Shown in pieces: positions 1 to 26,378 of a stretch of DNA of 64,000 bases; the stretch's first letter is position 1; each line of letters begins with the position of its first letter. This DNA is from Cyanophora paradoxa CCMP329 (taxonomy: Eukaryota > Plantae > Glaucophyta), in assembly GCA_004431415.1 (NCBI GenBank), contig QPMI01000017.1, positions 248,001 through 312,000 of the forward strand. Reading direction: 5' to 3'. A program made the position numbers and the translations under genes. The notes beneath the pieces are model-generated. The model was given only the letters and a program-made list of their open reading frames with translations, did not search any database and had not been told where the DNA came from.

Positions 1-1
1 T

Positions 2-226
2 GAAGTTATTCCCGAACCTGTTCATGTGGCAAAAGACTCACCTACAGAATTGATTGCAAAGACCATTGAGTATCAAGACTCCAACAAAACGGATTTGCCG
101 GTTCTCAATAAGTCGATCCTTCGGGTTGCCACTTCGCAGGCTGATCCAGTCAACTCGATTCCAAATGCTGCCCCAATGGTCTCTGGATTCGCCAAGCTTG
201 GTATAAGACCCGGTTATCGCCGTTAA
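2..226 (+). CDS. 3' end of a hypothetical viral protein (open from window start)
   Basis: Frame open from position 2 to TAA at 224-226; no recognisable motif. Confidence 0.5.
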   Translation, partial: EVIPEPVHVAKDSPTELIAKTIEYQDSNKTDLPVLNKSILRVATSQADPVNSIPNAAPMVSGFAKLGIRPGYRR

Positions 227-485
227 GGATCAATCTGAATAATATAATTTCTCAAACATTGTTAGCGCTACGTAACCAATCCTATCCCGTAGGCTCAAAA
301 CTTCTTCATTTTTATGGAGGCGTTGTAGAGCGAAGTGAAATATCCATAGGTAAATCACTTTAATCACCTGTTCTACCGGGTTCAGTGGTAGAAACTTGCA
401 GCCGACAAGTGAACCTTCTGGGTATCGGTAGCTTTATCATTTTTCCAGCATCTTCTTTCGTACTGGATGCTCTGCAATCGGGACC

Positions 486-546
486 AAAAATTGATTGGGT
501 TCTCACAAAGAATATATACACGACATAAAAACTACTTAAAGATTTC
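486..546 (+). promoter_or_regulatory. Candidate viral promoter: AAAAATTGA (486-494) and ACTTAAAGATTTC (534-546)
   Basis: Upstream of ATG 580. The 13-mer recurs exactly upstream of the 11829 gene, and a variant (ACTTAAGGAAAT) sits upstream of PolB. AAAATTGA is the known mimivirus early promoter motif. Confidence 0.45.
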
Positions 547-579
547 TTAACATATATTAAGAGAGTAGAAAGGACAAGA

Positions 580-843
580 ATGACGATCACAGAAGCCCAA
601 AAGAAAGCAACTTACCGCTACCGTAAAACAGAAAAGGGTATGTTAGCGCTTGCTAGGATTAATGAGAAACGCAATGCAAAATGGAACGAACTCTACAACA
701 ATGATGAAGAATTCAGACAAGCTCACATAATGACTTCATGCAAGGCTCAATATGTAAATAACACCATTCTCTATGTAAAGTATCTATTTGACGTTCCTCG
801 TACCAACCGCGGACGTCCATCAAAGTATGTTAATGCTTGTTAA
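580..843 (+). CDS. Small basic viral protein with C-terminal AT-hook-like motif (RGRPSK)
   Basis: 87-aa ORF with an AT-rich leader; EAQKKATYRYR start of the kind seen in small polinton/giant-virus proteins; followed by two hairpins (850-888). Confidence 0.6.
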   Translation: MTITEAQKKATYRYRKTEKGMLALARINEKRNAKWNELYNNDEEFRQAHIMTSCKAQYVNNTILYVKYLFDVPRTNRGRPSKYVNAC

Positions 844-1075
844 TCGTTTTTCTCAGCGCGATTGCTCTGAGAACCCGCGGAAACCGCGCTGGAAGCAAAA
901 CTATAAATCTTTCTGTTATTTTTAGAGTTCGATGATCGAGCCAACCCTTTGTTATTTTTATAAATGCCCTCGACTGAATTTATTTTGTTGGAGACTTTTG
1001 GTTTTGCCGGTAAAATTTGACGCGAGTATAAAATGACTTAAGGAAATAAAATATAGAGTATATATAAAAGTGAAA

Positions 1076-4000: not shown

Positions 4001-5099
4001 GTAAGTTGGTTCCCAATCTGATGAACAAGACCAATTACATCCTACACATCAAAAACTTGCAGTACTACATCTCAAAAGGATTGAAGGTAACAAAGGTTCA
4101 TCGTGGGATTATGTATGATCAATCTGAGTGGCTGAGACCATACATCGATTTCAATACCGGACTGCGGACGCAAGCTCGTAATGATTTCGAGAAAGATTTC
4201 TACAAACTCATGAATAACTCAGTTTTCGGAAAGACCATGGAGAACGTTCGCAAGCGAAGTAACATAAAGCTTTGCAACGATCCCAGGGTGCAGCTCAAAC
4301 ACAACGGCAATCCATTGTTGAAGACAGTGAAGATTATCAATGAGAATCTTACTGCTTTAGAGTTCTATAAGGGTTCTATTATGTTGGATAAACCCATTTA
4401 TGTTGGTCAGGCTATCTTGGATCTGTCCAAACTAATCATGTATCGTTTCCATTACGATTACATCATGGTGAAGTATGGACCTGGATCAGCCAAGCTGCTC
4501 ATGACTGATACAGATTCCCTGTATTATCTGATTGAGACTGACGATATCTACAAAGACATGATTGAGGATTCTCATTGGTTTGATCAGTCTGATTACAGCA
4601 AATCCCACATCTGTTACAACCCTAAAAATAAAAGGTTCCCGGTTTGTTCAAGGATGATTGTGGTGATTATCTCGTTACAAGGTTTGCTGGTTACAAACCA
4701 AAAGCATACTCCTACGAGAAGGAGTTGAATGTTAAGGCTCTGGGATCAGAAGAAAATGTAAAACAGGTGATTGCTGACAAGTTGAAGGATTTGTTAAGAG
4801 TGAAGTCGAATGCTACGGAAGCTGATGTTATTGATAGTAAGGTTAAGAAGTTGAAGGGAGTTCAGCGGTCAGTAGTGCAGAATAGGTTAGAGTTCCTACA
4901 ATTCTACATCACTGTCATGTATCCAATGAAGGAGCGGGAGAAAGTAACAGTTCGAGGTTTCCGATCAAAGAACCACGAGGTAACAACGCAGGAAATGAAG
5001 AAAAGGGCATTCAATGCGCTCGATACTAAGAGGTATCTTTGTGAGGACCTCTATACTACTCTTGCGATTGGACACTATAAAACAAAAACAACACTATAA
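1076..5099 (+). CDS. polB: Protein-primed family B DNA polymerase (Polinton/adintovirus type), split by five single-base frameshifts
   Basis: Motifs in order across six overlapping ORFs: YQPLAGSSYIDL, INPQNKDNKCFAWAV, C2H2 finger, Exo I VADFE, endonuclease VII-like CYIC..RDHDH..CNTCN, HNLKGYD, KGHFPY, DANNLYG, KLMNNSVFGKT, TDTDS, KKLKGV, DTKRY. Confidence 0.95.
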
Positions 5100-5104
5100 T
5101 AAGG

Positions 5105-6162
5105 ATGGACCAGGTTCTGAGTTATACCAAGTATCGACAGAAATTGATTAAAGAAGGTATCACATTTGATGAGGAAGAACTAAGAAAGCGTTTTAAAATC
5201 AAGAGCTTGAGCAGATCTTTAAGAAGCCCAAAAAGCAAAAGTCTTTCTTGCGGATCATTGCTCCACCCAATTCCTTTCAGGTTGATGTGATTTATTTCAA
5301 AAGCTACAAGACAGCAACACATGGAGTGGATAGGATGCTGGGATTTGTCGATATATTGAGTCGGAAAGCATTTGTATACCCTTTCAAGCCAAAGGATTCG
5401 AAAATCGATATTTTCAACAGGTTCAAAGTTGAGGCAGGCAAGGTTAGTGCTATCTCAGGAGACAATGAGTTCTCTGCTGAGATTTATAGGAAATGGTGTG
5501 AGGAAAACAATGTTACACTCTACACTGATGTAGCTAAGAATGACCACATCACAGTAGGTGATAAACTTGGTATTATCGATAGGTTCACCAGAACTTTTAA
5601 ACAATATTTGAGAAAAGCAATAGTTTCGAGTGGGAACCCAAAATGGACTGATTATTACAAACAGGTTCTGGCAACTTACAACAACAGTCCACACACTTCC
5701 CTAAAGAATGATTCACCCAATGCAGTGTATGGGAATAACGAGAAAGAATCGTTCATATATTTGCGTGATGCATTGCATAACAAACGTATTAAAGAAGGTA
5801 GCCCAACAGTAAAGGAGGGAGATTATGTTCGAGCTGTAACTGAAAAGAAGACTTTCGATAAAGAAGGAGCAAGATACAGCAAACAAGTGTATAAAGTAGC
5901 AGGCAAGGTAGGTAATCGATTTAGTTTATTGGAAGAGAATGAGGGAGAGAGTCCAAAGGAAGTAAAACGAAACTTTAAACTGAACGAGTTGCAAAAAGTA
6001 GATAAGGCAGCAATTGTTAAGATTCCCACACAGAAGCGTGTGGAGCGAGTGAAAAAAACAACGAAGGTAAATAGATTAGTAGCAAAAGAGGGTATCAAGC
6101 CCAATAGGAGCAAAGTAGTTAGGAAGAGGTATAATTTACGAAGCGGGTTGACTAGACGTTAG
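5105..6162 (+). CDS. Retroviral-like (rve) integrase A, one frameshift at ~5197
   Basis: FQVDVI, GFVDILSRKAF, SGDNEF, GIIDRFTRT, YNNSPH, C-terminal SH3-like KEGDYVR..FDKEG..YS. Adding one A to the run at 5195-5198 joins ORF 5105 to ORF 5248. Confidence 0.9.
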
Positions 6163-6521
6163 GCTGTGAGGTATGAACCATCTTTCGATTCAACAATTTT
6201 CGTGATAGGTCTGAACACTTTGAAAATTTCTTTATAATGGATTCCTTTAACATACCAACCCTTATGAATTGGGTCCCATCTGAGACCATAAGATTTCGCT
6301 AATTGGATGTCTTTGAAAGCAACTTGACAAAACATTTTAACATTAATGTATTTGATTTCGTCTTCTGTTAGTTTTCGGAATTCTTTGAAGATCTCACTGT
6401 TTTCATCTTCAACAAACCATAGCTTCTTTTCAAAATCCCATTTTGCTCCTTTTGATTTCACGGATTCGCGATCATCATATCGAGAGAAAATGTAAAAGCG
6501 TTGTTGTGGCTTGGTTTCCAT
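6159..6521 (-). CDS. Tandem DUF5710-like protein
   Basis: Two repeats: VKSKGAKWDFEKKLWFV and AKSYGLRWDPIHKGWYV. Convergent with integrase A, with overlapping stops. Confidence 0.75.
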   Translation of the reverse strand: METKPQQRFYIFSRYDDRESVKSKGAKWDFEKKLWFVEDENSEIFKEFRKLTEDEIKYINVKMFCQVAFKDIQLAKSYGLRWDPIHKGWYVKGIHYKEIFKVFRPITKIVESKDGSYLTA

Positions 6522-6539
6522 TTTTATTCAGATTATCAG

Positions 6540-6775
6540 ATTATTTTTATATGAAACAATCAATGAGGAATAACCGAGATTATGATATAACATCGATTGT
6601 TGTTACTGAGGCTTACTGAGATTTTACGTTTTGTTTTGTGTGGTTACTGTGAATGGTTTGTTTTTGATTTGGTTTTGTCGAAACGTTTGTGGAATATCGA
6701 AAAGTTTAAAGTTTATTCGATTTTATTACCATATATAATTTCGTGGGGCAGTATGCCCAATTTACATTTTTTTAT
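6540..6775. repeat. Putative right terminal (TIR) region of element A
   Basis: Non-coding, T/G-skewed, three TTACTG copies (6603, 6613, 6644) and a GGGCA-GTA-TGCCC hairpin. Abuts a helicase that starts mid-domain. The partner TIR is not in the window. Confidence 0.45.
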
Positions 6776-8070
6776 TGCTTAGTCATTTGCCCCTATAACA
6801 AACAGTGCGCAGAGCTGAGGGACTCTCTCAAAGTCCGCGGAATCGAGAATATTACCGTTCGCACTTTGTATAATGTTCTCGGGATCCGTGTCTCAAATGA
6901 TCAGACCTACGAAGAGGCTATGAGCGAAAAAGACCAGAGGGCGTTTGTCTCCGAGTTCAGCCACATTATGTTCGACGAGATATTCGCGTATTCTGTAAAA
7001 GATCTCGCTAAGATCAAGTCGTTTATCGATCGCTACCCGGATATCAAATATTTGGCTAATGGCGATACCTATCAGAACGAACCGATTAATGACGAGCTCT
7101 CGGTTTCTGATCGCAAGGGCTACTATAAGCGCGCTGTGCAGAGCATGTTCCCTAACGTCCTGAGTCTACGCATTAACAAGCGGCACAAGAAGGAGACAGA
7201 CCGTGAATTAATTGGGGCGATCAAAGAGGATCTCTTCGAAAACGGACTCGAAGCCGCACAGATTATCTCGAAATACGGGTTGCCGACAATTAATGATCTA
7301 AGCGCTATCCCCGACGGCTACTTTGGCATTGCTTACAGAAACGAAATGACCTTAGCCTATAACAAACTGATGCACGATAGACGGAAAGTAAATATCCCAA
7401 CCGTAGAGGTCAATGGCATCAAATTCTACAAGGGTCTGGAAGTCGTTTGTCGCAGGTATCTACGCATTTCGCGGTCTGAGGGTGAGTCTATTAATGCATA
7501 CACGAATTACACCTATCGAATCACCAAAATCACCAAGCAAATGGTCACATTAACTGACGTTTTCGATGGCGTCACGTTCGAGGTTCCGTGCGCGATGTTA
7601 GAACATTTTTCTCTCCTTATGCAGGAACAGGTCATTCAACGCAAGGTCTCACACTTGATTCGGGCATTGTCATTTGTGAGGCTACGTTCCGCTATACCAC
7701 TCGCGAATGGTTCTATACCGCTCTCACTCGTAACCGCGATCTGTCCACTGTGCTGATTTATACACCGATTCACAAGTTCCAAGGAAAGAGCGACTACATC
7801 GAATATCTGAAAACGAAGATCCGCGGATATAAATGCCAGGATCAGCGTGCCGGGCGCGATTTCAACGAAGCGGATTATATTACGCCGGAGTGGATATTAG
7901 AGCGCAAGAAGCAACAGAAGGGCGCCTGTGCGATCTGTTCCCTTCCGATTCCGATTGAGCCGCAAGATCCGAATTATAGGCTCGTCGTGGATCGCATCAA
8001 TAATAAGCGCCCACATCTTAAAGACAATTGTCAACTCGCGCATCACGGGTGCAATTGCAGCAAAAAATAA
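6773..8070 (+). CDS. 5'-truncated SF1B (RecD/Pif1-like) helicase fused to a C-terminal HNH-like nuclease domain; frameshift at ~7615
   Basis: Motif Ia-like LVICPYNK, Walker B IMFDEI, GDTYQNEPI, NKRHK, GHSTQGLTL, YTALTR, then CAIC..VDRINNKRPH..NCQLAHHGCN. No Walker A upstream. Confidence 0.8.
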
Positions 8071-8088
8071 ACAGGGTTAATTAGAAGA

Positions 8089-9471
8089 ATGTCACGGATC
8101 GTCAGAAGGGTAGCGGGCGAGGAAACGGAGACCACCATTCTACCTATCGCGGTTCCTGAAACTGAGCAAGTCCCCCAAAAAATCACAAAACGCCAAGCAA
8201 AATCAAATTTATTAGGAGATGTTCCTTTTAGCATTGCTAACCCGTCCTCTAAGATCGTGCGACGCATGTATGACCCGAAGACAGGTTTTAAGAACCCGTC
8301 CGCGATATACGAAGAGCTGAGAAAAGAGGACAAGACCCTCACATTAAAAGAAGTGCAAGATGTCGCAGCGAAACAAGAATTTATGCAGATCAACAAGAAG
8401 CCCCCCGCACCGACCCAAACAGCTTTTATTCCCATCACAGCCCCGCCGTGGTGCTACCAAGCCGATCTCATCTTTTATCTCTCATATGGCAGCTATAATT
8501 CCGGCTACATTGCAGTCCTTACTCTCATCGAGATGACAAGCCGAAAAGCATATGCCAAGAAGTTAAAGAACAAAGAGGGCGCAAGTGTTGCCGCCGCTTT
8601 TGCGGAGATGCTTACAGAGCTCCCGGCTCCGATGATTCGATTGGAGACAGATAACGGCTCAGAATTCATCGCGAAGGAGTTTCAGGAGGTCGTTAAAAGC
8701 AATGGAATAGAGCACCGCTTTAAACAGGTCGGAGATCACACTTCGCTGGGAATAATGAATCGCTTTCATTTGACCCTAAAAACGATGATAAACAATTACT
8801 GTGTCGCATATAATACTGTGCGGTTTATGGACAAGCTGGACGACTTCGTTTTCAATTATAATAACACCATTCACAGAACCATAGGAATGAAACCCGCAGA
8901 TGTTAAGCTTTCTGATATGGAGCGGATCCGAGCGGCTATTATTTCAAGGAAGAACACAATCGTAAAGGATATATTCAGCGACTTTAAGCCGGGTCTCCAC
9001 GTCCGCCTGTTATTGCCGAGATCAAAATTCGATAAAGGGGCGACTCAAAGGTATAGCCGAGAGGTCTACAAAATTGCGGGAAGGAGAGGAAACGCGATAG
9101 AGGTGCAAGATGCAGCGGGGAACGTTATGCCGAAGCTTTTTAAGCCGCACGAATTGCAAATCATTACAGAGGTCGAGGCTGTGGTGGAGCCATCAGGCAA
9201 CGCTATTTTAGCGGCTGATGTAGAGGCAGCTTCGATCCGGCAGGTTCAAAAGGAAGGCATAGATGTCGCCGCAAGTGTTCCGAAAGGGGCTTTATTGGAA
9301 GATCGCGCAGAAAAGACAAAGAGGGCGCTGAGAGAGCTCGCTAAACTAACGATCGCGGGAACTGAGAAGCTCTCAGAGGTAAACAGTCAGAGGTGGTATA
9401 AATCGTTCAAGAATCAGAGCGCAAGCTACACAGCCCCTACTACGCGCATTCTTCGGTCTTCTCGTTCATAA
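8089..9471 (+). CDS. Retroviral-like (rve) integrase B
   Basis: Polinton-type N-terminus YDPKTGF..V..Q, YQADLI, ETDNGSEF, GIMNRFHLTLK, YNNTIHRTIGMKP, FDKG..RYSREVY. Confidence 0.92.
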   Translation: MSRIVRRVAGEETETTILPIAVPETEQVPQKITKRQAKSNLLGDVPFSIANPSSKIVRRMYDPKTGFKNPSAIYEELRKEDKTLTLKEVQDVAAKQEFMQINKKPPAPTQTAFIPITAPPWCYQADLIFYLSYGSYNSGYIAVLTLIEMTSRKAYAKKLKNKEGASVAAAFAEMLTELPAPMIRLETDNGSEFIAKEFQEVVKSNGIEHRFKQVGDHTSLGIMNRFHLTLKTMINNYCVAYNTVRFMDKLDDFVFNYNNTIHRTIGMKPADVKLSDMERIRAAIISRKNTIVKDIFSDFKPGLHVRLLLPRSKFDKGATQRYSREVYKIAGRRGNAIEVQDAAGNVMPKLFKPHELQIITEVEAVVEPSGNAILAADVEAASIRQVQKEGIDVAASVPKGALLEDRAEKTKRALRELAKLTIAGTEKLSEVNSQRWYKSFKNQSASYTAPTTRILRSSRS

Positions 9472-9509
9472 CAAACCCGAAATTATTTTCTCCGGTAAAT
9501 ATAAAAGAG

Positions 9510-9824
9510 ATGGAGGGTGAAAAGTATTATGTTGATATTCCGTTTGATAAAAAAGACGTTGCGAAATCCCTCGGTGGAAAGTGGGATCGTGAGAATTCAT
9601 GCTGGTATGTCACGAAGAAAGATCACCCCCTATGCTCTCAGTTCAAAACTCTAAGCTATGAGCAAGTGTATCAAAGAAACGTGAAGGTTTACCTCGATAT
9701 TCCTTATGAATTTAAGGATCAAGCGAAGGCTGAGAAAGCCCGCTGGGATCCCGTTATGCGATGCTGGTATGTCATGGGTCTCGATCACCCGCTAATGGGC
9801 AAGTTTCCGATCAAGGAGCATTAA
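9510..9824 (+). CDS. Tandem DUF5710-like protein
   Basis: YVDIPFDKKDVAKSLGGKWD..CWYV and YLDIPYEFKDQAKAEKARWDP..CWYV. Confidence 0.8.
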   Translation: MEGEKYYVDIPFDKKDVAKSLGGKWDRENSCWYVTKKDHPLCSQFKTLSYEQVYQRNVKVYLDIPYEFKDQAKAEKARWDPVMRCWYVMGLDHPLMGKFPIKEH

Positions 9825-9849
9825 ATATATCTGTCGTTTTTTTCATTTT

Positions 9850-10242
9850 TTATGAAATTGGGAACCTTTGCTCGACCTGTAAGTCCCACTTTCGCACTTT
9901 CAGCCTTTCCTGTATGAGATCGTTAATGTCCTGTGCTATACCCATTGTCTTCGCTTCGGCATTTGACCCGCATGTAAAGATATCGATCGCTAATAGCCCC
10001 TGGTCGCTATAAGAGTGAGCTGTGGCATGCGACTCATCTAATAGAAAGCCAATCGCGAAACCGGGAGGGGAAATAGAGCCATCGAAAATGCAAGTGTGCT
10101 GATGCACGATGCGCATATTGCGATCTGTGATATATTGCGATAGGTTCGCTGTGATCCACTCGGCGCATGCCTCCGGGGACTCAGTAAACGGCTCGGTTAT
10201 ATAGTCGAGCATAACGTGGTAGCCGCGGTATCGGGAATCCAT
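9850..10242 (-). CDS. speD: Prokaryotic-type (class 1B) S-adenosylmethionine decarboxylase proenzyme
   Basis: 130 aa: GYHVMLDY, PPGF..FLLDESH (E-S-H pyruvoyl self-cleavage site), AHSY, AIDIFTCG. Confidence 0.88.
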   Translation of the reverse strand: MDSRYRGYHVMLDYITEPFTESPEACAEWITANLSQYITDRNMRIVHQHTCIFDGSISPPGFAIGFLLDESHATAHSYSDQGLLAIDIFTCGSNAEAKTMGIAQDINDLIQERLKVRKWDLQVEQRFPIS

Positions 10243-10487
10243 TATTAATTATAAAACAAATATTTAATGACCCTATGATACTTACATGGTCGTGTTAGCC
10301 TCGTCAAGACGGTCACGGCGCTATTTTTGGTTTTGCAAGGCGATGGGTTGGTGAAGAGATGCAGTGATTTGTCGGTTTGCGTGGCGGTTTCGAAAAAAAC
10401 AAAAAAAACACAAAAAATTCAAAGTTGTGCGGGATCACACACACGGAGGTTCGGACATATATACGAAATATATATATGACTGAGTCG

Positions 10488-11296
10488 TTATTTTTCACCA
10501 AGTTCATAGTTAGTCATTATGATATGGTTCCTTTTTCGTTTTGTTATACCATACACTTTGCCATACGTATGGCGAATATAGGGTTTAAATAGGAGTTTCA
10601 TTAAAAGAGCATCATTTACAACCATCATAACCTTGCATTTCGCTGTCTTAAATAGGTCTTCCAAATCCAAAAAGAAGGTTTCTAAATCGAATTCTACATT
10701 TTCGTAAAAGTCATTATTGCTGTTTACGTATGGAGGATCGAGAAATATAAAAGCCGCTTCATCATCTCTATATTTGGCTACAATATCGCGAAAATCCCCA
10801 TGGATAGGCTGGCTCCTTTAATAAAATCATCGTAAGGTATCTTCTTTTTAAGAGTTGTATATGGACTCACCTTCACGTTTCGTTTTTTGAAATCACGGAG
10901 GGTTTTAACATTTAAAACGCTGTTTTTAAGAAGATAGAAATGGTGAGCTAAGTAATCCATTGCATCTTTACGATCATGTTGTAGAAACTTCTTATAGACT
11001 TCTTTATGCTCTTCTATATTGCTTACTGCTTCGAACTGTTTAAGACTCTCTAAGAGTTTAACTTTATTGTCTGGGTCTTTCATTGTATTCAAAAAAAGGG
11101 TATGGGTTTCGTCGTTATCATTCATATAATAATCAAACCGGTCTTTATGCTTTTCCCAAAGATAGAAACTACAAGCACCTGAACCACAAAACGGTTCTAT
11201 AACTTTATTAATTCCTTCTAAATCGATATATGGATAGATCGTATCCATTTCATTATACTTGTTGCCGGTATATTTATGGTAAAAGTGAGTCTTCAT
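10488..11296 (-). CDS. D12-class N6-adenine DNA methyltransferase (Dam-like), one frameshift at ~10802
   Basis: YTGNK, motif I EPFCGSGA, ND; after adding one base reads GDFRDIV..FIFLDPPY and continues into ORF 10488-10670. Confidence 0.88.
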
Positions 11297-11505
11297 TTAT
11301 TATAGGAAGAGAAAAACAATTTATATATGTATCTCGCATGTTGTTTGCATGTATCTTGCATAGTGGGCGGGGCGCGAGTGGTTCCAGTGCATTAAATGGA
11401 ACATTTCGATTGAAGTCGCGAGTTTGTGCAGGTGGGCATTTTCGGCATGCTTGCTCATGCACATACTCGCTTTAAAAAATATAAATCTCATTTTAAAATC
11501 ATAAA

Positions 11506-11829
11506 TTAGCTCGTCCGAGTCTCACTATAACACTGTCGGCATTTATAGTAGAGACCATCCTTCGTATTTTGCTTTTTATTATACTCGCTTGCAGGCTTCT
11601 CAATCTTGCAATCCGGGCATATCTTCGATTGTACTTCGATTTTCGGACGCGTTTTTAAGACATTGTGATAGTGATCATTTTGATAGTCACGGTGGCACTC
11701 TATGCATCTCCAATATAATGTTATATTTCCCGACTTGCACTTGCGCAAAGGGAACCACGATGCAGGCTTGACCTCTTTGCACACATTGCACAGTTTACTT
11801 TTAGGTAAGGGGAGCTGATTACCCGGCAT
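11506..11829 (-). CDS. Protein of two tandem CxxC..KP..CxxC zinc-ribbon repeats
   Basis: KLCNVCKEVKP..CIEC and KICPDCKIEKP..CRQC, a repeat type common in phage and giant-virus nucleases. Confidence 0.7.
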   Translation of the reverse strand: MPGNQLPLPKSKLCNVCKEVKPASWFPLRKCKSGNITLYWRCIECHRDYQNDHYHNVLKTRPKIEVQSKICPDCKIEKPASEYNKKQNTKDGLYYKCRQCYSETRTS

Positions 11830-11848
11830 CTTTATACTTGTATAGTGG

Positions 11849-11861
11849 GAAATCTTTAAGT
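11849..11861 (-). promoter_or_regulatory. ACTTAAAGATTTC motif upstream of the Zn-ribbon gene
   Basis: Exact reverse-strand copy of 534-546, beginning 32 bp before ATG 11829. Confidence 0.5.
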
Positions 11862-11929
11862 GGGGATATACGCACTATATAAGTTAATTTAACCTATCGG
11901 TGGGGCTCACCTTGATTTTTCAAATTGGA

Positions 11930-12222
11930 CTACTGAAAACAGTTCGACAAGGATCAGGAACATTACGCAAAAAATAGGGTCTTACTGTCCTTACTGAGAG
12001 ATCGGGGAAAGTTAAAGGGCTTACTGGGAATGGTAAGGAATTAGAAAAATGAAGAATGAAAGGGTTTCGTGATTGGTTTCAGTAAGGAAGGGTTAGATGT
12101 TTGAAAAATACAATGTGGCTCAGTGCGAATTTGTGATTTTGTGACTGAGATTCGTGATGCTGAAAATGTGCTTATTGAAAATGGTCGCGGGAAGGTCGCG
12201 TAATTGGTGGGGGCCACCCCCA
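11930..12222. repeat. Putative right terminal (TIR) region of element B, ending in CA
   Basis: Non-coding, repeated CTTACTG (11981, 11990, 12020; inverted at 12080) and a GC hairpin GGTGG-GGG-CCACC. Terminal CA at the composition boundary with host DNA. Confidence 0.6.
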
Positions 12223-15200
12223 TGCGAGCAGCAACTGAAACAAATCCGGGACTCTCTGAAGAAGAGCCTGGACGACAGTCGGCGAGAGCTCGAAGCGGCG
12301 CGCTCGCAGCACTATTGCCTGCAGTTCCTTGTGACCCGCCAAGTGTGGGGCATTGTCGACTTTCTTCGGTACGATTTCGACGAGGCGACGGCCTTGCGCG
12401 TTCGGAGCTCGCTGCGCCTCTACCGGCCGTCCATCACGGCGCAGGCGGTCAGAGACGCATGGCAGCTGCAGGAGGTTAACATGGACGATCTGGCGGGCTG
12501 CTTCGAGAGCGCCGCGGGCTTCGTCGAGATGTGCGAGCGGTTGTGCCCCCTCCCGCAGCTGACGCCGTTCCCGCGCCTTACCGGGATGCGCACCTCGGAC
12601 TCGGTCGAGCACCTCCTCGTCGCGGCCGTCAACTCCCGCGAGCACGCCGTCAACGTCCTCTTCTCGCTCTGCATGACGGACGGGCGCGTGCCGGCGCGCA
12701 GCCAGGTCCTCTTCTGCTCGCCCTCGACCACGCTGGAGGAGGTGCTCCTCCTCGTCGAGCGCTGCCGCCACGCCAAGGCGCGCGGGTTCGGGGACCGCCT
12801 CTTTTACATCGTGCACGCCGAGCTACTCCAGTACGAGCTGCAGGTCGTCCTCTCCGGCCTCCTGCGGCAGATGGAGCGGGAGGTGCACCTGCACCCGTTC
12901 CGCCTCGCCGTCATCTGCTGCCGCCAGGGCGTCGCCTCGGAGCAGTCGCAGCTGCTCGCCGACTTCGCCGCAACGCTGCACCCGACGAGCGGCCTGCAGG
13001 ACGGCGTCGTGCGGGAAGCAGCGGCGGCGCTCCTGCCGTTCGTTTTCGTCGTCACCTCGGAGGCCGCCGGCCTCGGCAAGTCGGAGTTCATCTCCCTGCA
13101 GTGCTACAAGCGGGACCTGGAGCCGCGCCTCCTCACCGTGACCGGCGCGCTCGACGCGCAGCAGCTCGTGCGGCGGATCGAGGCGCTGGGCCTCGCGCCC
13201 GGCCGGGATGCCCTCCACATCGACATCGGGCCCGTCGACTCGCCCCACGCCCTCAACATCTTCCTCCTCGAGCTCCTCCTGCTGCGTACCGTGTGCGCAG
13301 GTGACGATGTCTTCACCATGCCCGACGTGCCCGTGTTCGTCGAGGTCGGCACCGTCGCCGGCGCCCCGCTCCTCTCGGCGCTCTCCTTCTGCCGCCACCT
13401 CCCCACTCGGAATCTCCTCTGGTCGCTCGAGCGTGTCGTCGTCAGCATGGAGCCCTCGAGCGTCGACCAGCTTGTCTGCAGGCGCGTGGCCTCTGCAGAC
13501 CCCGCGCGCGCATGTAAACCTTCTAATTGTCGTGGCGCAGATACCTGCACGCCCTTGGGAATGGCACGCTGGAGACGCAGGACATTGCGATCAAGCAGGC
13601 GGGGTTGGCGGCCCTCCCCCTTCCCACCTGCCGCGCGCTGCTCAGCAAGCACTTCTTCGAGCACGAGCGCGTGGCCCGGCGGGCGCCCTACACCGCCCTG
13701 CAGACCTTCCTGCGCGTGCTGGGCTATCAGCTCGTCCGGCTGAGCCGCAGCCCCTTCTTCCGGGTCGCCCACCTCCGCTACGCCACGCAGCGCGTCGGGG
13801 CAGCGTCGGGGACGCGCTCGCTCCTGGTGCGCTCGCTGGTGGACATGGCGGCGGAGTTCGCGTCGCTGCACGACCCGGCGCAGCGCGCGGCGGCGGCGGC
13901 GGCGCACGGGACGGACGAGATCGAGCACTGCGTCGACCGCTTCTCGCGCATGATCCGGTGGTCGGCCGCCGAGAACAACCACCTCTTCGTTCTCTTCCAC
14001 CCCGCCGGATCCCTCACCGCCCTCTACCGGGACCCCGGCACCGTGCCCGAGACCATCCGCTCCCTCCTCCAGGGCCAGGACGAGACCAACACCATCCCGT
14101 CTGGGTCTTCCTCGACGAGATCAACACGAGCGAGTGCCTCGGGCTCGTCAGCGAGGTCGTCTGCCGCCACACGCTGCACGGCCGGCCCGTCGCCCGCAGC
14201 GTCTCCTTCCTCGCGGCGTGCAACCCGTACAAGCGCCGCTCCCCGCAGGCGATGCAGAGCCAGGCGCAGGCCGGCCTGAAGCTGCGGCAGCGGGACGACC
14301 CGATGTCGCGGCTCGTGTACCGCGTGCACCCGCTCCCCGAACGGCTCGCGGACTTCGTTTGGGACTTTGGTTCGCTGAGCCGCGAGGACGAGACGCGCTA
14401 CGTCCGCGCCATGGTCCTCGGCAGCGAGTTCCTCCGCCTGCTCGACGGAGTGGCGTACCACGAGCGCCTCGTGTACCAGCGGGTCGTCCCCGGCCTGCTC
14501 GTCGCCTCGCAGGAGTTCGTGGCGAAGAACGAGGCGGTGTCGGCGGTGAGCCTGCGGGACGTCAACCGCTGCATCTTCCTCATGGCCAAGTTCCTCGCCC
14601 TGCTCCGCCGCAAGCGCGACCTCGACGCCACGCTGCTCTCCTCCAAGAAGAAGTCGGGCGGCAAGGGCAAGCCCAGCCGCGGCCGGCGCGGGACGGGGGA
14701 TCCGGAGCCGCTGGAGGAGCACCGGAACAAGGAGCCGAAGGGCGAGCTGCCCGTCCGCGCCGTCGTGCTGGCCCTCGCCCACTGCTACTACTGCCGCCTC
14801 CCGACCCGCGAGCTGCGCGACAAGTACGCGGTCCTCGTCGCGCGCGAGCTGCAGCCGCTCGTGGCCGTGCTGCAGCGGTCCAGGTTCGACGAGCGCGACG
14901 TCAAGGAGATCGTGCGGTGGGAGCAGAAGGACTACCTGCGGCGGATGACGCTCCCGGAACCGCGCCATCCACCTCGCCCGCCCCGAGCCCGACCGCACCG
15001 ACCTCTACGAGACCGCTCTCGCCATCGTCCACGCCGAGGCGCGCCGCGCGCCCCAGTGAGGAAGTGATCTTGAGGCTAACATCAACACTCTCCAGGTCGA
15101 GGGGCGCGCGAGGTTCCTGCACGGCAGTACCGTGCGCAGCCTCGCGACCGCGTATCACAACTACCAGCGGGAGATGCGGGGCGCGCCCTACGAGAACTTC

Positions 15201-18200
15201 CACGGCCTGCGCGACTACTACAGGTGATGCCCCCCGGGCCTCGCTTCCGCTCTTCTGCCTCCTCATCGCTAACACGGGGTCAGCCTTGTCAAGAGCCTCG
15301 CGCGGGCCGAGGCGGCGATCGCGAGCGCGGGCTCGGACAGCAAGCAGGGCAGCAAGCTCGAGGTCTTCATGCGGGCCCTGCAGCGCAACTTCGGCGGCCT
15401 CGCGGCGGTCGCGCCGCCCGAGCGGGCCGGCAAGGTTATTTCGAAGTTCCTCGAGGATTTGAACCTGGTTCCGAAGGGCGCCGGCGCCTCGGCCGTCACG
15501 CGCCCACCCGTGCTGGAGCTTATCCGCGAGAACTGGCTCGACACCGAGGCCCGCCCGCCCGCCCCGCCCCGCTCCGCCCCGCCGTGCGAGCGGCGGCCCC
15601 TTCTGAGGCGCGGGCGCAGGCGCGGCACCTGCTGGTGGCCTCGGGGTGCGACGCGACGCTGGGGATCCCGCAGACGGAGCTGGCCCCCGTGCTCGCCGCG
15701 CGGGGCCGCAGCCTCGTCCTCATCGCGGGGAGCGCCTTCCCCGACGATGCGGGGAGCGAGGAGTACGCGTACCGCGTCCTCAGCCGCGTCATCCTCTCGA
15801 TGGAGGCCGGCAACTGCGTCATCCTGAAGGACCTCAACGTGTACGGCGCCCTCTACGACATGCTCAACCAGCACTACAGCATCGGCGCGGGGGACAAGCG
15901 CTACTGCCGCGTCGCCCTCGGGGCCTTCACGAGCCCGCCGTGCCACGTCGACGAGCTCTTCCGCTGCGTCGTCGTTGTCGACCGCGACGAGGTCGAGCTC
16001 CAGGGTGCGAGGCCGCGCGGCGCGCGCCGCTCGCGCGCGCGCCTTCTCACGCAGACCTCAACACGCGCATGTGCAGACCCGCCCTTCCTGAACCGCTTCG
16101 AGAAGCAGGTGGTCTCCTACGAGGACATCCTCACGGACGGCCAGCGCGCCCTCATCCGCGAGCTCTCCCGCTGGGCCCGCGACGCCGCCACCTGCGCCCT
16201 GCCCGGGAGCAGCTTCACCGAGGAGCGGCCCGAGCGCTCCTTCTGTGGCTTCAACGAGGACACCCTCCCCTCCCTCGCCCGCCTCCACCTCCCCGCCGCC
16301 CCCGCCCCTGCTCCGCCCGAGGCCGGCGCCGCTGCCGGGCCCGGCGCCGGGGCCGGGGCCGGTGCCGAGGCGGACCGGGCGGGGGCGCTGGAGCGGTGCA
16401 AGGGGGACCTTGTGGCAACGATGACGGAGGACTGCGCGGCGCGGCTCGACTGCACGCGCCTCGGCCGCTCTGACGCGCCCGAGGCCGCCCGCGTCGCCGC
16501 CCTCTACGCCGGGCAGGAGCACCGCTCGCTCGCCCGCTTCCTCGACCGCGCCGTCGAAGGCTGGCGGGAGCGGCCCGAGGCGTGGGGCGGCGCCGCCGGC
16601 GTCACGGCCATCGTGTACACGTTCTCGCAGCCGACGTCGGCGCCGCCGCTGGGGGCCGCCGGGCGGCGGTCGTCGTGCTGGGCGCGGTGCGGCGCGAGGC
16701 GGACTTCGTGGCGCGGCTGAAGGGCTTCTGGGCGGCGGGGGCGCCCGAGGAGGTGCTCGTCGTGCAGTGCGCGGCGGGGCCCGACCGGGCGACGCTGCCC
16801 CTCGCCGCCGCCCTCCTCGAGCAGCACCGCGAGGCCTACGCCCGCGCGGGGGGCCGCCCGGCAAGCACGCCCTCCTCCTCGTCCACCTCGACCGCGCCGC
16901 CTCGGCCTCCGCCCCTTCAGCCACCTCGGCCAGGTGCCCCCGCCCCGACGCCCTAGGCCTTCGCCCCCCCGGCGCCGCGGCTCAGGCGCGGGGCAGTGGC
17001 GGCAGGTGGCGATCGACGCGCTGGAGCCGCCGGCGGCGGTCGTCGTCGTGGGCCCGCTGCGGGGCACGCCGGTCGCCGAGCTGCTCGCGGCCGGGCGCCT
17101 GGACGCGCTGCTGCTGGAGGCCCTCCCGTGGTCCCTCGCCGCCCTCCGCTACCGCCGCGCCGCCGGGGCCGAGGAGCACGTCCGCGCCGTCCGCGCCGCC
17201 CTCCGCTCTTCCCCGAGGCCCTCGCCCTCCTCCGGCCCCTCGTCGCCGCCGCCCTCCCGCCGACCCCGCCGCCGGCGGGGGCGCCGACTGGGCCCAGCGC
17301 GTCGCCTCCAGCCTCGAGGCGCGCCCCGCCCGCCCCGGACCCTCGCCCACGCCGTCCCGCCCTGACGCTCGGCCGCAGGCGCTGGCGCTGTCGGCGTCGC
17401 TGGAGGCGGCGCTGCTGGAGGCGCTGCGGCGGCAGCTGCGGGGGCCCCTCGCCAAGGTCCTCCTCCAGCTCGAGCGCGAGGAGCTCCTCGCCACCCTCGC
17501 CGCCCGCCCCGCCCCCGCCGCCGCCGCCTTCGCCGCCGCCGGCCCCGTCCTCGCCCCGGGCCTTGCCGATGTCGCCGGGCTGCCCCCGCCCGAGCTCGAG
17601 GGGTACGAGGTCGCGGGGCCGGCCCCGGCGCGCCTCGTGCCGCTCTCGCGCGCCCTCCACCGCCGCCTCGAGGAGTACCGCGAGGGGCACGGCCTGCGCC
17701 TCGCCGCCCTCCGCAGGCGCCGCGAGGAGGCCGCCCAGCCCCGGGGCGGGGCGAGGGGGGCGAGGAGGAGGCCTCGCCGAGCCCCGAGGAGGCCTGCTGC
17801 GAGGAGCTGCGGGCGACGCTCCCCGCCGAGCTCGCCGCGGCGGCGCGCGCCGTCGTCGGCGACGGGGCCGACGACTACGCCCGCGACTTCGCACTCAGCG
17901 TGCGCGCCCGCCCCGCGCCCCGCGCCCCGCGCCCTGCGGCCGACGGCGGGGCATGGGCAGGCGGCGCAGGAGCTGGCGGGCTTCCCGTCGCTGGAGGAGG
18001 CCCGCGACGCCGTCCTCTGGCTCCTCCGCGCCCTCCACCCGGCGCCCTTTGCCGACGCCCTCGCCGTCCACTGCGCCTGGTGGGCCGCCGCCGAGCAGAC
18101 CGCCGCCTGCCTCGCCCTCCTCGCCGCCTGCGCCGCCGTCGTCCCCGTCGCCGAGGCGGCCGGCGGGGCCTTTGAGGGCGGCCCCGAGCGCCTGCGCGTG

Positions 18201-21200
18201 CACGTCGCCGACCGCATCTGCCGCGCCATCCTCGCCGCCGCCGCCGCCTCCGACGAGGGGCCCGAGGAGGGCGGCGAGGGCGGCGGCTGGCTGCGCGCCG
18301 CCCGCTACGTCGTCGCGCAGGTGGCCGCCGGGGGCCCCTTCGAGGTGCCCCCCACGGCCGCCTTCCAGCTCCTCCGCGTCTGCGCGGAGCTGGCGCCCTG
18401 CCTCCGGGGCGCCGGGGCCCGCGGGGCGCGGGAGGCGCGGGCGTCGCTGCTGCGGGAGGTGGCGGCGCTGGGCGAGGGCGCGGGGCCCGAGCCGCTCGCC
18501 TCGGCCGCCTTCGTGGGCGGCCTGCTGGCGCTGCTGGAGCGGCGCGGGGCGGTGCTGGATGGGGCGGCGCTGGAGCGCTTCGAGGCCGGCCTCTTCGCGC
18601 GCTGCCTCGGGGCCGTCGACCCCGAGCGGCCCCGCGAGGCCGCCCCGCTCCTCGAGGCCATCGCCCGGCGCCTGCTGCGCCCCGACGCGCGCCTCGGCGC
18701 GGGGGCGGCGCACGCGCTGGGCGCCCTCTTCGCGCTGGCCGCCGAGGAGCACGAGGCGCGGGCCGGGGCGCCGGCGGCCTTCTCCCTGGGGCTCTACGGG
18801 ACGCCCTGGGTGACCCCGCGCTGCTGGCCGCCCCGCCGGGCCTCGCCGCCGTGGACGCCGCCCTCGCCCTGCACCCGCCCGACGGCCCCACCGCGCCTTC
18901 GTCTCCGACGTCCTCCTCCTCAAGGTCCCTTCTCCTTACTCCGGCCTAACCTGTCCATTTCTTACTTAAGAGGGCGGCAGGTGTACGCGCGGGTGGGCCC
19001 GGCGGAGCTCGCGGCGGAGAGCGTCGTGGAGCGCGCCGTGGCCGAGTGCCTCGTCCACGCGTGCCGCCTCCTCGAGGACCCCGCCGCCGGCCCCCTCGCC
19101 ACGGCGTGCGCCGCAGCCTTCCTGCGGGCCGCCTGCGCGGCGGTGGCGCCCTACTGGGCCCCCGGCCCCGCCGCCCTGCACGGCCTGGGCCCGCACGTCG
19201 CCCGCGCATTCGAGTCGGCCCTCGCCGGCGCCTCGGAGCGCGCCCGCGGGGCCCAGCTCTGCCTCCTCCGCGCCATCCGCCGCGAGGCCGGGCCCGTCTC
19301 GGCGGCCGACCTGCGGGCGTGGTGCACGCAGAGCCTGGCGGGGCGCCTCGGCTGGCTCCAGGAGCTCCCGTGGCGCCCCGCGCCCCTCTCCCGCCTCGAC
19401 TACGACCCCTTCGCGGGGGCCGAGGGCCACTACGACTCCGCCCTCCGCGCGCTCGAGGCGCTCGCCGCGGGCCACGGCGAGGGGCCCCTCGAGGCGCTGC
19501 TGAAGGAGGCGGCGCAGAAGCCGGCGGCGCTCCTCGCCGCCGCGCAGGCGACCCTCGCCCGCTTCCTCCTCTCCCGCGCCGGCTTGGGCCCCGGCCCCGC
19601 CCTCGAGGCCGCCGCCCCCGCCTCGCCGCCCTCCTCGAGTCCCGCCTGCGGGGCCCCGCGCTGCGCCCCGCCGCCCGCCTCCTGTCCGCGTTCCTCTCGG
19701 GGCGGCGCGGGACCCGGGGCGTGCGCCCCGCCCCGGGCCTTCCTGGAGCTCTCGCCCGGCTGCGAGGCGGCGGACGTGCACCTCGCCGCCCTCTTCGCCC
19801 ACTGGGCCGCCCTCCTCGCCGCCGCCCCGCCCGCCGCCCTCCCATTCTCCGCCCTCTTCGCCGAGCCCGCCCGCGTCGCCGCCAGCTTCGTGCCCGGCGC
19901 CCCCTCCGGCGCCGAGGCCGCCGCCGCCCGCGCCCTGGGCGCCGCGGAGGGCGGCCGCGGCAGGTGGTACACGCACTCCTGCGGCTTCCGGTGCGCCCCG
20001 CCCCGCTCCCCCCGCGCCGCCCCCGCCCCGGCGAGCGCCTCGCAGGTACTTCGTGGCGAACTGCGGGCGGCCGATGGAGCGGGCGGCGTGCCCGAACCCG
20101 GCCTGCGCGGGGGCGGGGGCCCTCGGCGGGGCCGGCCACACGCCCGAGGCCGGCAACGCCGAGGCGGGGGCCCCCGAGGAGCGCCCGGGGCTGCCCCCGC
20201 TCGACCCCGCCGCCCTCGAGGCGGCCCCCGAGCACACCGAGCGCGGCCTCCACCCCGCCGCCTTCCGCATCCTCCGCCTCCTCTCGTCCCTCGCCCTCGC
20301 CGCCTCCGCCGCCGCCGGCCTCCTCCCCGCCCCCCTCGCCCCCGCCCTCTTTCGCGGCGGGGACGCCTCGCGGGCGCTCGAGGCGGCGGCGGCGGATGCC
20401 GGCGCGCTCTGCCGCCTCTTCGACGCGGACCTGCCCGCCCTCTGCCTCGCCCTCCACGGCCTCCTCCGCCGCCTCGCCGCCGACGCCCTCGCCGGCCGCG
20501 CCGCCCTCCCGCCCGCCGCCGTGGCGCTCGGGTCGGCGGCCGGCCGCGCGGCCTTCGAGCGCGCCTTCGAGGCGGCGTACGTGCGCCCGCTCGTCGAGGC
20601 GGGGGCCCGCGCCGCCGCCGCCGCCTTCCGGGAGGCCTCCCGCCGCCCGGGCGCCGCCCCGGGCTCCGGCCTCGAGGCCGAGCTCCTCGAGGGGCCCCGG
20701 CGCCCCCGCCGCGGACGCCGACCCGCGCCTGCCGCGCACCCTCGCCGCGGCCCGCGCGGGGACGGCGGAGGGCCTGCGGCGGGCCTTCCTGCTGCGGCCG
20801 GAGCTGCGGGGGTGGCACCCGGCGCTGGCGCTGCTGCTGGACGCCGAGGCGGGGGTCGAGCGAGTGCGGCGCGTGGCGCCGCTGGCGCGCTGGTCGGCGG
20901 CGCTCGCGAGGCGCCTGGAGCACGCGATCTCGCGGGAGAAGGCGCAGCAGCAGAGCGTGCGCCAGTTCCTCGAGTCGCGCCCCGCCCTCGAGCCCCTCTT
21001 CGAGGCCGGGCGGGCGGCCTGGGAGGAGGCCCGCCCCGGCCTGCAGGGCCCGCTGGAGTGCGTGCAGAACGTGCCCCCGGCCCCCGAGGCCACCCTCGAC
21101 TCCCCGCTCTCCCTCTTCCTCCCCGAGCGCCGCGACACGGGGTCCGCCCTCCCAGCCCCGCCCCGCCTCGCCCCGCCCCCCTCCTGCGCCGATCGCGTCG

Positions 21201-22967
21201 CCGGGGGCCGGTAGGGTGCACGTGTGCATGGCGCTGGACCAGATCGCGGGGGCGCAGAACGCGCTGCTGCACGCGGCGGCGGCGCTGGCGCGGGGCGGCT
21301 GCGCGGCGCTCGCCTTCCTCCCCGCCGCCGGCCCCGCCTTCGGCGAAGTCGCCGTGCAGGACGCCGCCGAGGCCGACTTCGTCGAGCTCGAGGCCCGCCC
21401 CGCCCGCCCGCCCCGCTCCCGCACCGGCCCTCGCGGCTCAGGCCCGGGCAGGTGAGCGACGAGGTGGCGGAGGAGCACTCGGGGCCGGCGCTGGAGGCGG
21501 GGGCGGGGCGCGGGGAGCCCGTGTACGACTTTGCCCGCCTCGAGGCCGTCCTCGCCCAGGCGCGCCCGCTTCTCGCCCCTTAAGCTTAAGCTTCTTAAGC
21601 TCCGTGCTCACGACGGCCCCGGCCCCGCCCGCGCAGCGCGCGCTGGCGGGGCGGCGGCTGATGCGGATGGAGGGCGACCGCGCGGCCCTGCGCCCCTTCG
21701 TCTACCACCTCGAGCTCTTCCCTACGTGCGCCGCCCCCCGACCAGAACAGCGCGCCCGGGGCCTCTGACTCCACGCTGCGCGCGCCACGCCTGCAGGAGC
21801 GGGACGGTGCTGGAGGAGATTGGGGCGCGGGTGCGGCAGGAGGCGCTGCCCCCCGGGGCCGAGGCGGCCATCCGCGCCGACGCCGCCCTCGCCGGCCGCC
21901 TCGAGCGTGCCATGCAGGCCATGGAGGTCGTCCTCGGCACCGTGCGCCCCGCCCACCCCTCCCCGCGCGATCTCCGCCCCTCTCTGACCCGCGGGCGTGC
22001 GCGCAGCTGAACCGCGGGGCGCCGCGCTGGTCCGAGGACCTGGTGCGCATACGCCCCCCGCGACTCGATAGAGCCGCCTCCTCGCGCTCTGATCATGAGC
22101 CGACCCTGCCCCGTTTCGCGCCGCGGCAGCCGCTCTCGTCCTTCGGGGAGATCTTCGAGGGGGACTCGGCGGAGCGCTGGCTCCTCGCCCTGCCGGCCCT
22201 CCGGCCCCTCGCCCTCCGCCACGCCTGCGCCCTCTACGAGACCCTCGAGGGCGCCGCCTGCGAGGCCCGCCCGCCCCGCCCCCCCCCCCCCCCCCCCCCC
22301 CATTCTTCCTCGCTGACGCGGCGTGCGCAGGTCGTCGTCGAGTGCGCGGCGGAGCAGTTCCGCGCCCCGCTGCCCCCCGGCGCCGAGGCGCGCCTCGCCG
22401 CCGCCCTCGGCCTCGAGGGCGGGGCGGGGCGGGGGCCGGGGCCGGGGCCGGGGCGGGGGTGGCGCTGGAGGAGCTGCTGCTGGCGCTGCGGCGCTTCATC
22501 TACCGCTACCTCGCGGCCACGGGCGGGGACGCGGCGGCCGTCAGGCAGCCCCTCGCCTCCCACCTCGCCCGCGAGGACCTCTGGCGCCGCGCCAGCTCCA
22601 CGGGCCGCCCCGCCGCCTCCGCATCCGGTGGAGGGGCGCCGGCCCCCGAGGCGCTGGCGGCGTGCGTGGCGGAGAGCGTGACGTGCGCCCACGTCTACGC
22701 CCTCTACAAGGCCCTCCGCCGCATCTCCGACGCGCGCCCCCTTTGCTTCCCTTCCCCTCGCCCCGCTTTGGCCGAGGCCTGACGCCCCCGCAGCGGATCA
22801 CGTACGGCCTCCCCGCGCCCGCCGCCCTCGCCGCCGCCTCGAGCTCCGAGGGCCCTGCGGCCTCGGGGTCCGCGGCCGGCGCTGCGGCGCGCCTCTCCGC
22901 GGCGGCGGCGGGGCGCGGGGGCCCCCTGCTCGGGGCTCAAAAGCGTGGGAAGCGGAAGTACGCCTAG
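12223..22967 (+). pseudogene. RNF213-like: RNF213-like giant AAA+ / RZ-finger E3 ligase, 3' part; interrupted by the viral insertion and with two internal deletions
   Basis: VVTSEAAGLGKS, LHIDIG, FLDEINT, AACNPY, LVYRVHPLP, VWDFGSL, VSLRDV, GLRDYYSLVK, RNFGG, GSAFPDD, LYDMLNQHY, FLNRFEK, RZ finger NCGRPM..CP..C..GG.GH (~19965-20140). Many short introns; stop at 22967. Confidence 0.88.
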
Positions 22968-26175: not shown

Positions 26176-26378
26176 AGCGAGCCGTACGCGTGCCGTCGCC
26201 CGCCGCGCCTCCGCATTTCGACGACGGAAAAAAGACCGACTTGCGAACTGGCCGACTTGGACAGCGTGACAGACAATCCGACGGGTAGCAACTTACTAGC
26301 AAGGGGGGTTTGAGCAGCTGACCCCCCCTTGCAATAGTTTGCCAATAAACGTTAACTACTACTTAGTATTACAGTCAA

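What the first reader, a model, noticed from the sequence alone, without database searches (positions are those of the whole stretch)
12200..12300. Viral element is integrated in an exon of an RNF213-like immune E3 ligase
Seen: host coding sequence (CEQQLKQIR...) starts immediately after the terminal CA, with no start codon or splice acceptor, a few hundred codons before the AAA core. Known: mammalian RNF213 is an antimicrobial and antiviral AAA+/E3. Inference: insertional knockout of a defence gene by an endogenous virus; whether targeted or chance is unknown.
Basis: partly seen in the sequence, partly recalled or inferred. Interest (0 to 1): 0.75.

Follow-up and report, generated by a model that had tools for sequence, protein, structure and literature searches.

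The report
Virus insertion splits algal RNF213-like pseudogene
A multi-copy Polinton-like element sits inside an exon of one of at least two RNF213-like giant ubiquitin-ligase genes of the alga Cyanophora, but that copy has also lost both ATP-binding motifs by deletion while its sister gene model keeps them, so this is likely a chance hit on a dispensable copy and not an attack on immunity.

Summary
The junction is real and exonic. One unbroken single-copy contig spans it in 2 of 2 DNA runs laid, with no branch to an empty allele. The element ends at 12229 (…GCGAGC), not at the CA at 12222. A second flank, joined to the same end in 4 of 4 runs, gives an exact 6-bp target-site duplication (AGCAAC; chance about 1e-4). 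It reads in frame and resembles the paralogue at that position, so it is most likely the left junction, and a 5' part exists (30 nt seen). The host is Cyanophora paradoxa. The gene is RNF213-like (PDB E 5e-23; RZ finger), but two contig-confirmed frameshifting deletions remove both catalytic Walker A motifs. A paralogue model keeps both, and contigs matching it appear in runs guessed to be RNA. Whether insertion or deletion killed the gene first is unresolved. Nothing supports targeting: exonic insertion is common for such elements (13 of 29 EMALE sites, PMC8547959), and algal RNF213 function is untested. The scan had no earlier RNF213 note; it has notes on other viral elements of this genome.

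The parts
1..12229 (.). Right-hand part of a multi-copy Polinton-like / MELD-type element; its left part lies outside the window
   Evidence: GC 37-47%; pPolB, rve, helicase C-terminus, AdoMetDC, D12 methylase, DUF5710; element-end contig depth 5-30 times single copy
1076..5099 (+). Protein-primed DNA polymerase B gene, in several frames
   Evidence: PF03175 E 8e-14 on one piece; 6 tblastn segments to the L001 polymerase, 26-56% identical
5335..6162 (+). First rve-type integrase-like gene, directly after pPolB
   Evidence: No Pfam hit; tblastx to the genes following pPolB in L001-L003
8089..9471 (+). Second rve integrase gene, open frame of 460 aa
   Evidence: PF00665 E 1.8e-13; 6 relatives at 30-35% identity, all with PF00665
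12114..12229 (.). Element end (inferred terminal inverted repeat), closing with a short G/C hairpin and GCGAGC; true terminus at 12229
   Evidence: Depth step at 12229/12230; X18 contig identical over 12114-12229, then another flank; a sister subfamily also ends in a hairpin plus GCGAGC
12157..12229 (+). In-frame ATGs inside the element end (12157, 12166, 12181), open into the host exon; used by the public gene model
12230..12235 (+). Right copy of the 6-bp target-site duplication (AGCAAC)
   Evidence: Equals the reverse complement of the first six letters of the other flank; only length 6 of lengths 1-12 matches
12230..22967 (+). 3' part of an RNF213-like gene (stalk end, AAA module, E3 module, RZ finger, C-terminal domain); a pseudogene as it stands
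   Evidence: 50.6% identity over 3083 aligned residues to paralogue P0003; 17 intron calls of 55-96 nt; PDB RNF213 hits
14078..14096 (+). Deletion 1 with frame change: about 113 codons missing, including Walker A GETGCGKT of the first catalytic AAA unit
   Evidence: spanned without difference by contigs of X1 and X13
14956..14958 (+). Deletion 2 with frame change: about 159 codons missing, including Walker A GKPGCSKS and Walker B LLDEVG of the second catalytic AAA unit
   Evidence: spanned without difference by contigs 14104-15220 of X1 and X13
19960..20150 (+). RZ-type zinc finger, split by an intron, with CGRPM cysteine and downstream histidine present
   Evidence: PF20173 E 1e-5 in a window frame, below cut-off; E 1.3e-9 in model P0002

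Best explanation
A Polinton-like element with rve integrase genes lies inside a coding exon of one of at least two RNF213-like genes of Cyanophora paradoxa, beside a 6-bp duplication likely made by that integrase; the same copy has lost both catalytic Walker A motifs by deletion, so the insertion is likely an untargeted event tolerated because a paralogue likely covers the function. Shown: junction, terminus, multi-copy status, both deletions, paralogue model with intact motifs. Inferred: that the second flank is this element's left junction (strong); that the 5' part is still transcribed into the element and would stop 36 codons inside it (weak); that the gene died recently (moderate); that placement was by chance (moderate). 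The order of insertion and deletions is open, about even.
For: Junction contig unbroken at single-copy depth in 2 of 2 DNA runs. Terminus at 12229. One other flank laid, the same in 4 of 4 runs; 6-mer match p about 1e-4 from exon composition, 15 occurrences in 103,542 host positions. Its 7 residues upstream of the duplicated bases score 10 against the paralogue in the register fixed by the downstream exon; 0.7% of 20,000 random host peptides reach that, and element-derived residues in that register score -13. rve integrases typically make 6-bp duplications (PMC12220804, passage). Exonic insertion is ordinary: 13 of 29 EMALE sites, with no sequence-specific integration found (PMC8547959, passages). 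Deletions: confirmed in contigs; 53 of 60 long homologues keep both Walker A motifs. Paralogue P0003 has AAA and RZ Pfam hits; contigs matching its sequence at 12893-12968 and at 14957 occur in both RNA-guessed runs (one sample). No stop in 951 contig-verified codons gives a bound of about 3.7% neutral change since death; GC3 is still 0.92-0.98.
Against: Only 30 nt of the 5' part were seen; against all 66 homologue segments the flank peptide is only borderline (5.2% of random peptides score as well). A word search for a 5'-part gene model found none among 5676 candidates (low sensitivity). With about 30 insertions of this family, a random hit on either gene has only about 1% chance (9% for 300 insertions, with a recalled 100-Mb genome), although the class of genes that could be called immune is far larger. 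Two independent deletions would each hit a different Walker A by chance in only 0.3% of trials (6.7% if they were one event, post hoc). The paralogue is only about 50% identical, so redundancy is assumed, not shown.
Confidence: 0.75

Rival explanations
1. Insertion-first knockout: the element killed a working RNF213-like gene by chance, and the two deletions arose later in the orphaned 3' part. This is a sub-case of the best explanation, not exclusive of it.
For: Both deletions lie in the part cut off from the promoter. In RNA-guessed runs the left junction is present in 2 studies (X18, X19) while 12230-12269 has no cover. Little point decay, so all lesions are recent.
Against: No data order the events. 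With three lesions (or two events) the prior that the insertion came first is one third to one half. The RNA label is a guess, and contigs give no strand.
Confidence: 0.45
2. Safe harbour: the gene was already dead from the AAA deletion(s), and the element landed in, or survived in, a neutral pseudogene. Also a sub-case of the best explanation.
For: Either deletion alone shifts the frame and removes a Walker A whose loss disables mammalian RNF213 (PMC11549300, PMC12075652, passages). Survivor bias favours insertions in dispensable DNA. The two element ends are identical over the 116 nt compared.
Against: 116 identical nt cannot date the insertion. The element's own genes are broken in the window, which may mean age or may be assembly error.
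Confidence: 0.4
3. Targeted or selected disarming: the element's integrase is steered to this defence gene, or loss of this RNF213-like copy was favoured because it restricted the resident viruses, which would also explain deletions that take out both ATP-binding motifs.
For: Three lesions fixed in one gene in a short time; both deletions hit a Walker A (0.3% if independent); RNF213 restricts viruses in mammals (PMC10041092, start of abstract only); the genome holds many viral elements (earlier notes, unchecked).
Against: One insertion only. The first frameshift alone would have silenced everything downstream, so selection does not explain the second deletion's position; the two deletions lie 860 nt apart and may be one event. 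The paralogue model is intact. No sequence-specific integration was found for EMALEs (PMC8547959). No immune function is shown in algae.
Confidence: 0.07
4. Assembly artefact: a repeat end was mis-joined to a host exon, or conserved AAA segments were lost in assembly.
For: The element is multi-copy and its genes are frameshifted; high-depth contigs differ from the window at 11567 and 12003.
Against: Independent contigs of two DNA runs (2019 and 2024) span the junction and both deletions with no difference; a matching 6-bp duplication exists.
Confidence: 0.02

Closest known systems
Endogenous mavirus-like elements (EMALEs) in Cafeteria burkhardae (PMC8547959, passages)
   Same: Low-GC, rve-integrase, TIR-bounded elements in a high-GC protist; short TSDs; 13 of 29 integration sites in exons; no sequence-specific integration found.
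   Different: Here no virophage capsid module was seen (left part outside the window); the TSD is 6 bp where EMALE TSDs are mostly 3-5 bp; the hit gene is RNF213-like and has further deletions.
Polintons / MELD (adintovirus-like) elements; such PolB plus integrase sequences were already noted in Cyanophora paradoxa contigs (PMC8502044, passage)
   Same: pPolB followed by an rve gene, as in IMG/VR relatives L001-L003 (41-51% identical polymerase; A32 ATPase in 2 of 3); 6-bp TSD.
   Different: Two rve genes, a broken helicase, AdoMetDC, D12 methylase and two DUF5710 genes; ends read GC…GC, not the AG…CT recalled for canonical Polintons; capsid genes not seen.
Mammalian RNF213 / mysterin (PDB 9jwg, 8s24, 7oik; PMC11549300, PMC12075652, passages)
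   Same: Homologous stalk/AAA region (E 1.6e-5 and 5e-23), Walker B of the first catalytic unit, RZ finger; the paralogue model has both Walker A motifs.
   Different: This copy lacks both Walker A motifs and one Walker B, is split and frameshifted. No RING hit in either Cyanophora model. CBM20 region not available. No function tested in algae.

Membership tests
Polinton / Polinton-like element | Protein-primed DNA polymerase B | tested here: met
   PF03175 E 8e-14; gene is in several frames in the window
Polinton / Polinton-like element | Retroviral-type (rve) integrase | tested here: met
   PF00665 E 1.8e-13 at 8089-9471
Polinton / Polinton-like element | Terminal inverted repeats | tested here: inconclusive
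   An end identical over 116 nt is joined to the TSD-bearing flank in the orientation expected of an inverted repeat; the left end itself is outside the window, so length and full identity are unknown
Polinton / Polinton-like element | 5-6 bp target-site duplication | tested here: met
   Exact 6-mer, p about 1e-4; rests on one flank, seen in 4 of 4 runs
Polinton / Polinton-like element | Capsid, packaging ATPase and protease genes (virus status) | not testable with these tools
   None in the 12.2 kb in view; the rest is outside the window and no genome is held. Relatives L001 and L003 carry A32 ATPases
Canonical Polinton or retroviral-type terminus | AG…CT ends (Polinton) or TG…CA ends (retroviral); both recalled, from no call | tested here: not met
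   Right end is …GCGAGC at 12229; so not filed as a canonical Polinton
RNF213 family | Dynein-like AAA module homologous to RNF213 | tested here: met
   All 9 PDB sequences hit are RNF213, best E 4.8e-23
RNF213 family | Two catalytic AAA units with Walker A and B | tested here: not met
   Both Walker A motifs and one Walker B are deleted in this copy; present in paralogue P0003. Filed as an RNF213-like pseudogene, not a working member
RNF213 family | RZ finger with catalytic Cys and His | tested here: met
   PF20173 E 1.3e-9 in P0002; residues seen; equivalence to human C4462 judged by eye
RNF213 family | RING domain | tested here: inconclusive
   No Pfam RING hit at E 0.05 in P0002 or P0003; not examined by structure
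RNF213 family | N-terminal CBM20 / N-arm | not testable with these tools
   5' part outside the window; paralogue model has only about 190 residues upstream of the junction
RNF213 family | Antimicrobial or antiviral E3 activity | not testable with these tools
   Known from mammals only in the papers seen

The most novel reading that the evidence does not exclude
A glaucophyte alga uses RNF213-like giant E3 ligases against DNA viruses, and in this virus-laden lineage one copy was actively disarmed: split by a Polinton-like insertion and stripped of both ATP-binding sites, because its loss favoured the resident viruses. That would be a record of endogenous viruses eroding an ancient eukaryotic immune gene, with the intact paralogue as a ready test.
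Probability: 0.07. Interest if true: 0.75.

Novelty: new member of a known kind. Interest (0 to 1): 0.27.

Why it matters
As it stands it is a clean, well-supported example of a known event: a Polinton-like element inserted in a protist exon. Its use is practical: it corrects the element's terminus and a chimeric public gene model, and it shows that Cyanophora has RNF213-like genes, one with all catalytic motifs, which offers a route to ask whether RNF213 immunity predates animals. I found no paper on RNF213-like genes in glaucophytes (searches; open-access library only). It would matter much more if insertions proved enriched in defence genes.

Tried and rejected
No whole genome is held, so the left end, the 5' part, the paralogue count and insertion enrichment could not be examined directly. 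Element-end motif: 0 matches in viral contigs and 0 in metagenome contigs. Integrase query: no related viral locus. Word search with the first exon: no hit. Word search for a 5'-part gene model with paralogue residues 1-260: none among 5676 candidates; weak evidence. One search used a wrong frame and is void; repeated. The second exon had no PDB hit. No listed run is on record as RNA; missing cover of the 3' part in RNA-guessed contigs is no evidence of silence, and one X18 contig (12936-13138, depth 2.6) does match it exactly. The terminal hairpin folds no better than shuffles (z -0.9 to -1.35). Rejected: terminus at CA 12222; AG at 12230-12231 as a splice acceptor (it is part of the duplication and the flank reads in frame); the TGA at 15057 as a lesion (it probably lies in a 57- or 63-nt GC-AG intron); a scrambled order around 14090 (a simple deletion explains it). 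Nine further frameshift calls at 16640-22426 all sit in 78-90% GC context outside the stretch laid on contigs and were not counted as lesions. Earlier notes: nothing on RNF213, nearby, or like the element end. Supplementary tables of the papers were not read; the EMALE site table may name the host genes hit.

Full report
Setting. Window 1-12229 is a 37-47% GC block inside 60-83% GC DNA. It encodes a protein-primed DNA polymerase B in several frames, an rve integrase (PF00665, E 1.8e-13), a second rve-like gene, a helicase C-terminus, AdoMet decarboxylase, a D12 methylase and two DUF5710 proteins. Three IMG/VR loci share the polymerase (41-51% identity in the best segment) with an rve-like gene behind it; 2 of 3 carry an A32 packaging ATPase. 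The window starts inside the element, and no genome is held. The best protein match to the host exons is a EukProt gene model of Cyanophora paradoxa, 100% identical over its first 431 residues. Adintovirus-like PolB and integrase sequences in Cyanophora contigs are mentioned in PMC8502044 (passage).

The junction is real. Seventeen DNA runs hold at least 94% of the sampled words of 10500-15500 (24 runs listed); I laid 2 of them. In both, one contig runs 12200-14131 with no difference, at the depth of the neighbouring single-copy contig (65 against 69; 33 against 31). An empty allele at appreciable frequency would be expected to break that contig at the junction; none is seen, though contigs drop rare variants, and one of these runs may be the source of the assembly.

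The terminus is 7 nt further right than reported. Contigs of depth 166-319 run through 12229, and summed depth falls to single copy at 12230. A more abundant sister subfamily also ends in a G/C hairpin followed by GCGAGC. Depth ratios suggest about 5 exact ends of this type and roughly 55 related ends, about 25-30 elements (rough).

The other junction. The reverse complement of its first six letters equals window 12230-12235, AGCAAC; no other length from 1 to 12 matches, and the chance is about 1e-4. Read in the frame set by the downstream exon it has no stop, and its 7 residues upstream of the duplicated bases score 10 against the paralogue (0.7% of 20,000 random host peptides) but only borderline against all 66 homologue segments (5.2% of 5,000). 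I take it as the left junction of this element, which makes the site a 6-bp target-site duplication inside an exon, as expected of rve integrases (PMC12220804, passage). In 42 homologues over 3500 aa the matching position lies 126-1619 residues from the start, mostly near 600 or 1100-1450, so a large N-terminal part is cut off. Only 30 nt of it were seen.

The host gene. It is RNF213-like: all 9 PDB sequences hit are RNF213 (best E 4.8e-23), it has an RZ finger, and 1524 representative proteins match at E 0.001 or better. A Cyanophora paralogue model (P0003, 3663 aa) aligns at 50.6% identity over 3083 residues to 12230-22967, with 17 intron calls. Relative to it the window copy lacks about 113 codons at 14078-14096 and about 159 codons at 14956-14958, each with a frame change. 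These segments hold both catalytic Walker A motifs and the second Walker B; 53 of 60 long homologues keep both Walker A motifs. Contigs of both DNA runs span both deletions without difference. In mammals, loss of either Walker A lysine strongly reduces E3 activity and abolishes pathogen coating (PMC12075652, PMC11549300, passages). The copy is therefore predicted to be dead with or without the element. No stop occurs in 951 contig-verified codons, which bounds neutral change since death at about 3.7%, and GC3 is 0.92-0.98: the loss is recent. Nine more frameshift calls downstream are unverified and may be assembly errors in very GC-rich DNA.

Expression, weak evidence. No run is on record as RNA. 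In runs guessed to be RNA, contigs carry the left junction in two studies (X18: 116 nt of element end plus 1974 nt of flank; X19: 81 nt of flank) and none covers 12230-12269. If these are transcripts, the simplest reading is that the host promoter still fires into the element, and the frame would stop 36 codons inside it. Contigs matching the paralogue's sequence occur in X18 and X20, which are one sample. Strand and level cannot be read from contigs.

Mechanism and rivals. Most likely the integrase placed the element without regard to gene function, and the insertion persisted because this copy was dispensable (0.75). Exonic insertion is the rule in a comparable system: 13 of 29 EMALE sites, with no sequence preference found (PMC8547959, passages). 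Within that reading, insertion-first (0.45) and landing in an already deleted gene (0.4) cannot be told apart. Both figures are post hoc; the first frameshift alone suffices to kill the gene, and the paralogue model is intact. I give targeted or selected disarming 0.07 and artefact 0.02.

Literature seen. Passages: PMC8547959, PMC12220804, PMC8502044, PMC11549300, PMC12075652, bioRxiv 10.64898/2026.07.28.741278. Listing and start of abstract only: PMC10041092. Searches (RNF213 outside animals; Cyanophora polintons; viral insertion in protist immune genes) listed no paper on this locus or on glaucophyte RNF213-like genes; the library lacks most subscription papers, and supplements were not read.

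Verdict. New member of a known kind; interest 0.27.

Noticed in passing
window 6700-6800: GC steps from 32% to 47%, the helicase gene lacks its start, and the element has two rve genes on either side of this point; it may be a mosaic or nested pair of elements.
   Followed up: partly
window 12206-12229: The end is a short G/C hairpin followed by GCGAGC, and a sister subfamily keeps this layout with a different hairpin; folding is not better than shuffles.
   Followed up: partly
window 12181-22967: The public gene model (P0002) starts at an ATG inside the element end and skips both deletions with apparent false introns, so it is a chimeric annotation.
   Followed up: yes
window 1076-5099, 6710-8070, 10488-11296: Polymerase, helicase and methylase genes are frameshifted; high-depth contigs differ from the window at 11567 and 12003, so some breaks may be assembly errors.
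   Followed up: no
window 36795-37367: Weak match (E 8e-4, 27% identity) to the paralogue's C-terminal residues 3472-3655; possibly another gene with an RNF213-like C-terminal domain.
   Followed up: no
window 13482-22793: 9 of 17 intron calls in the host gene start with GC rather than GT.
   Followed up: no
window 9850-10242 (-), 6159-6521 (-), 9510-9824 (+): The element carries an S-adenosylmethionine decarboxylase gene and two DUF5710 genes.
   Followed up: no
window 25720-26214: Array of about seven 40-nt GC-rich repeats downstream of the gene.
   Followed up: no
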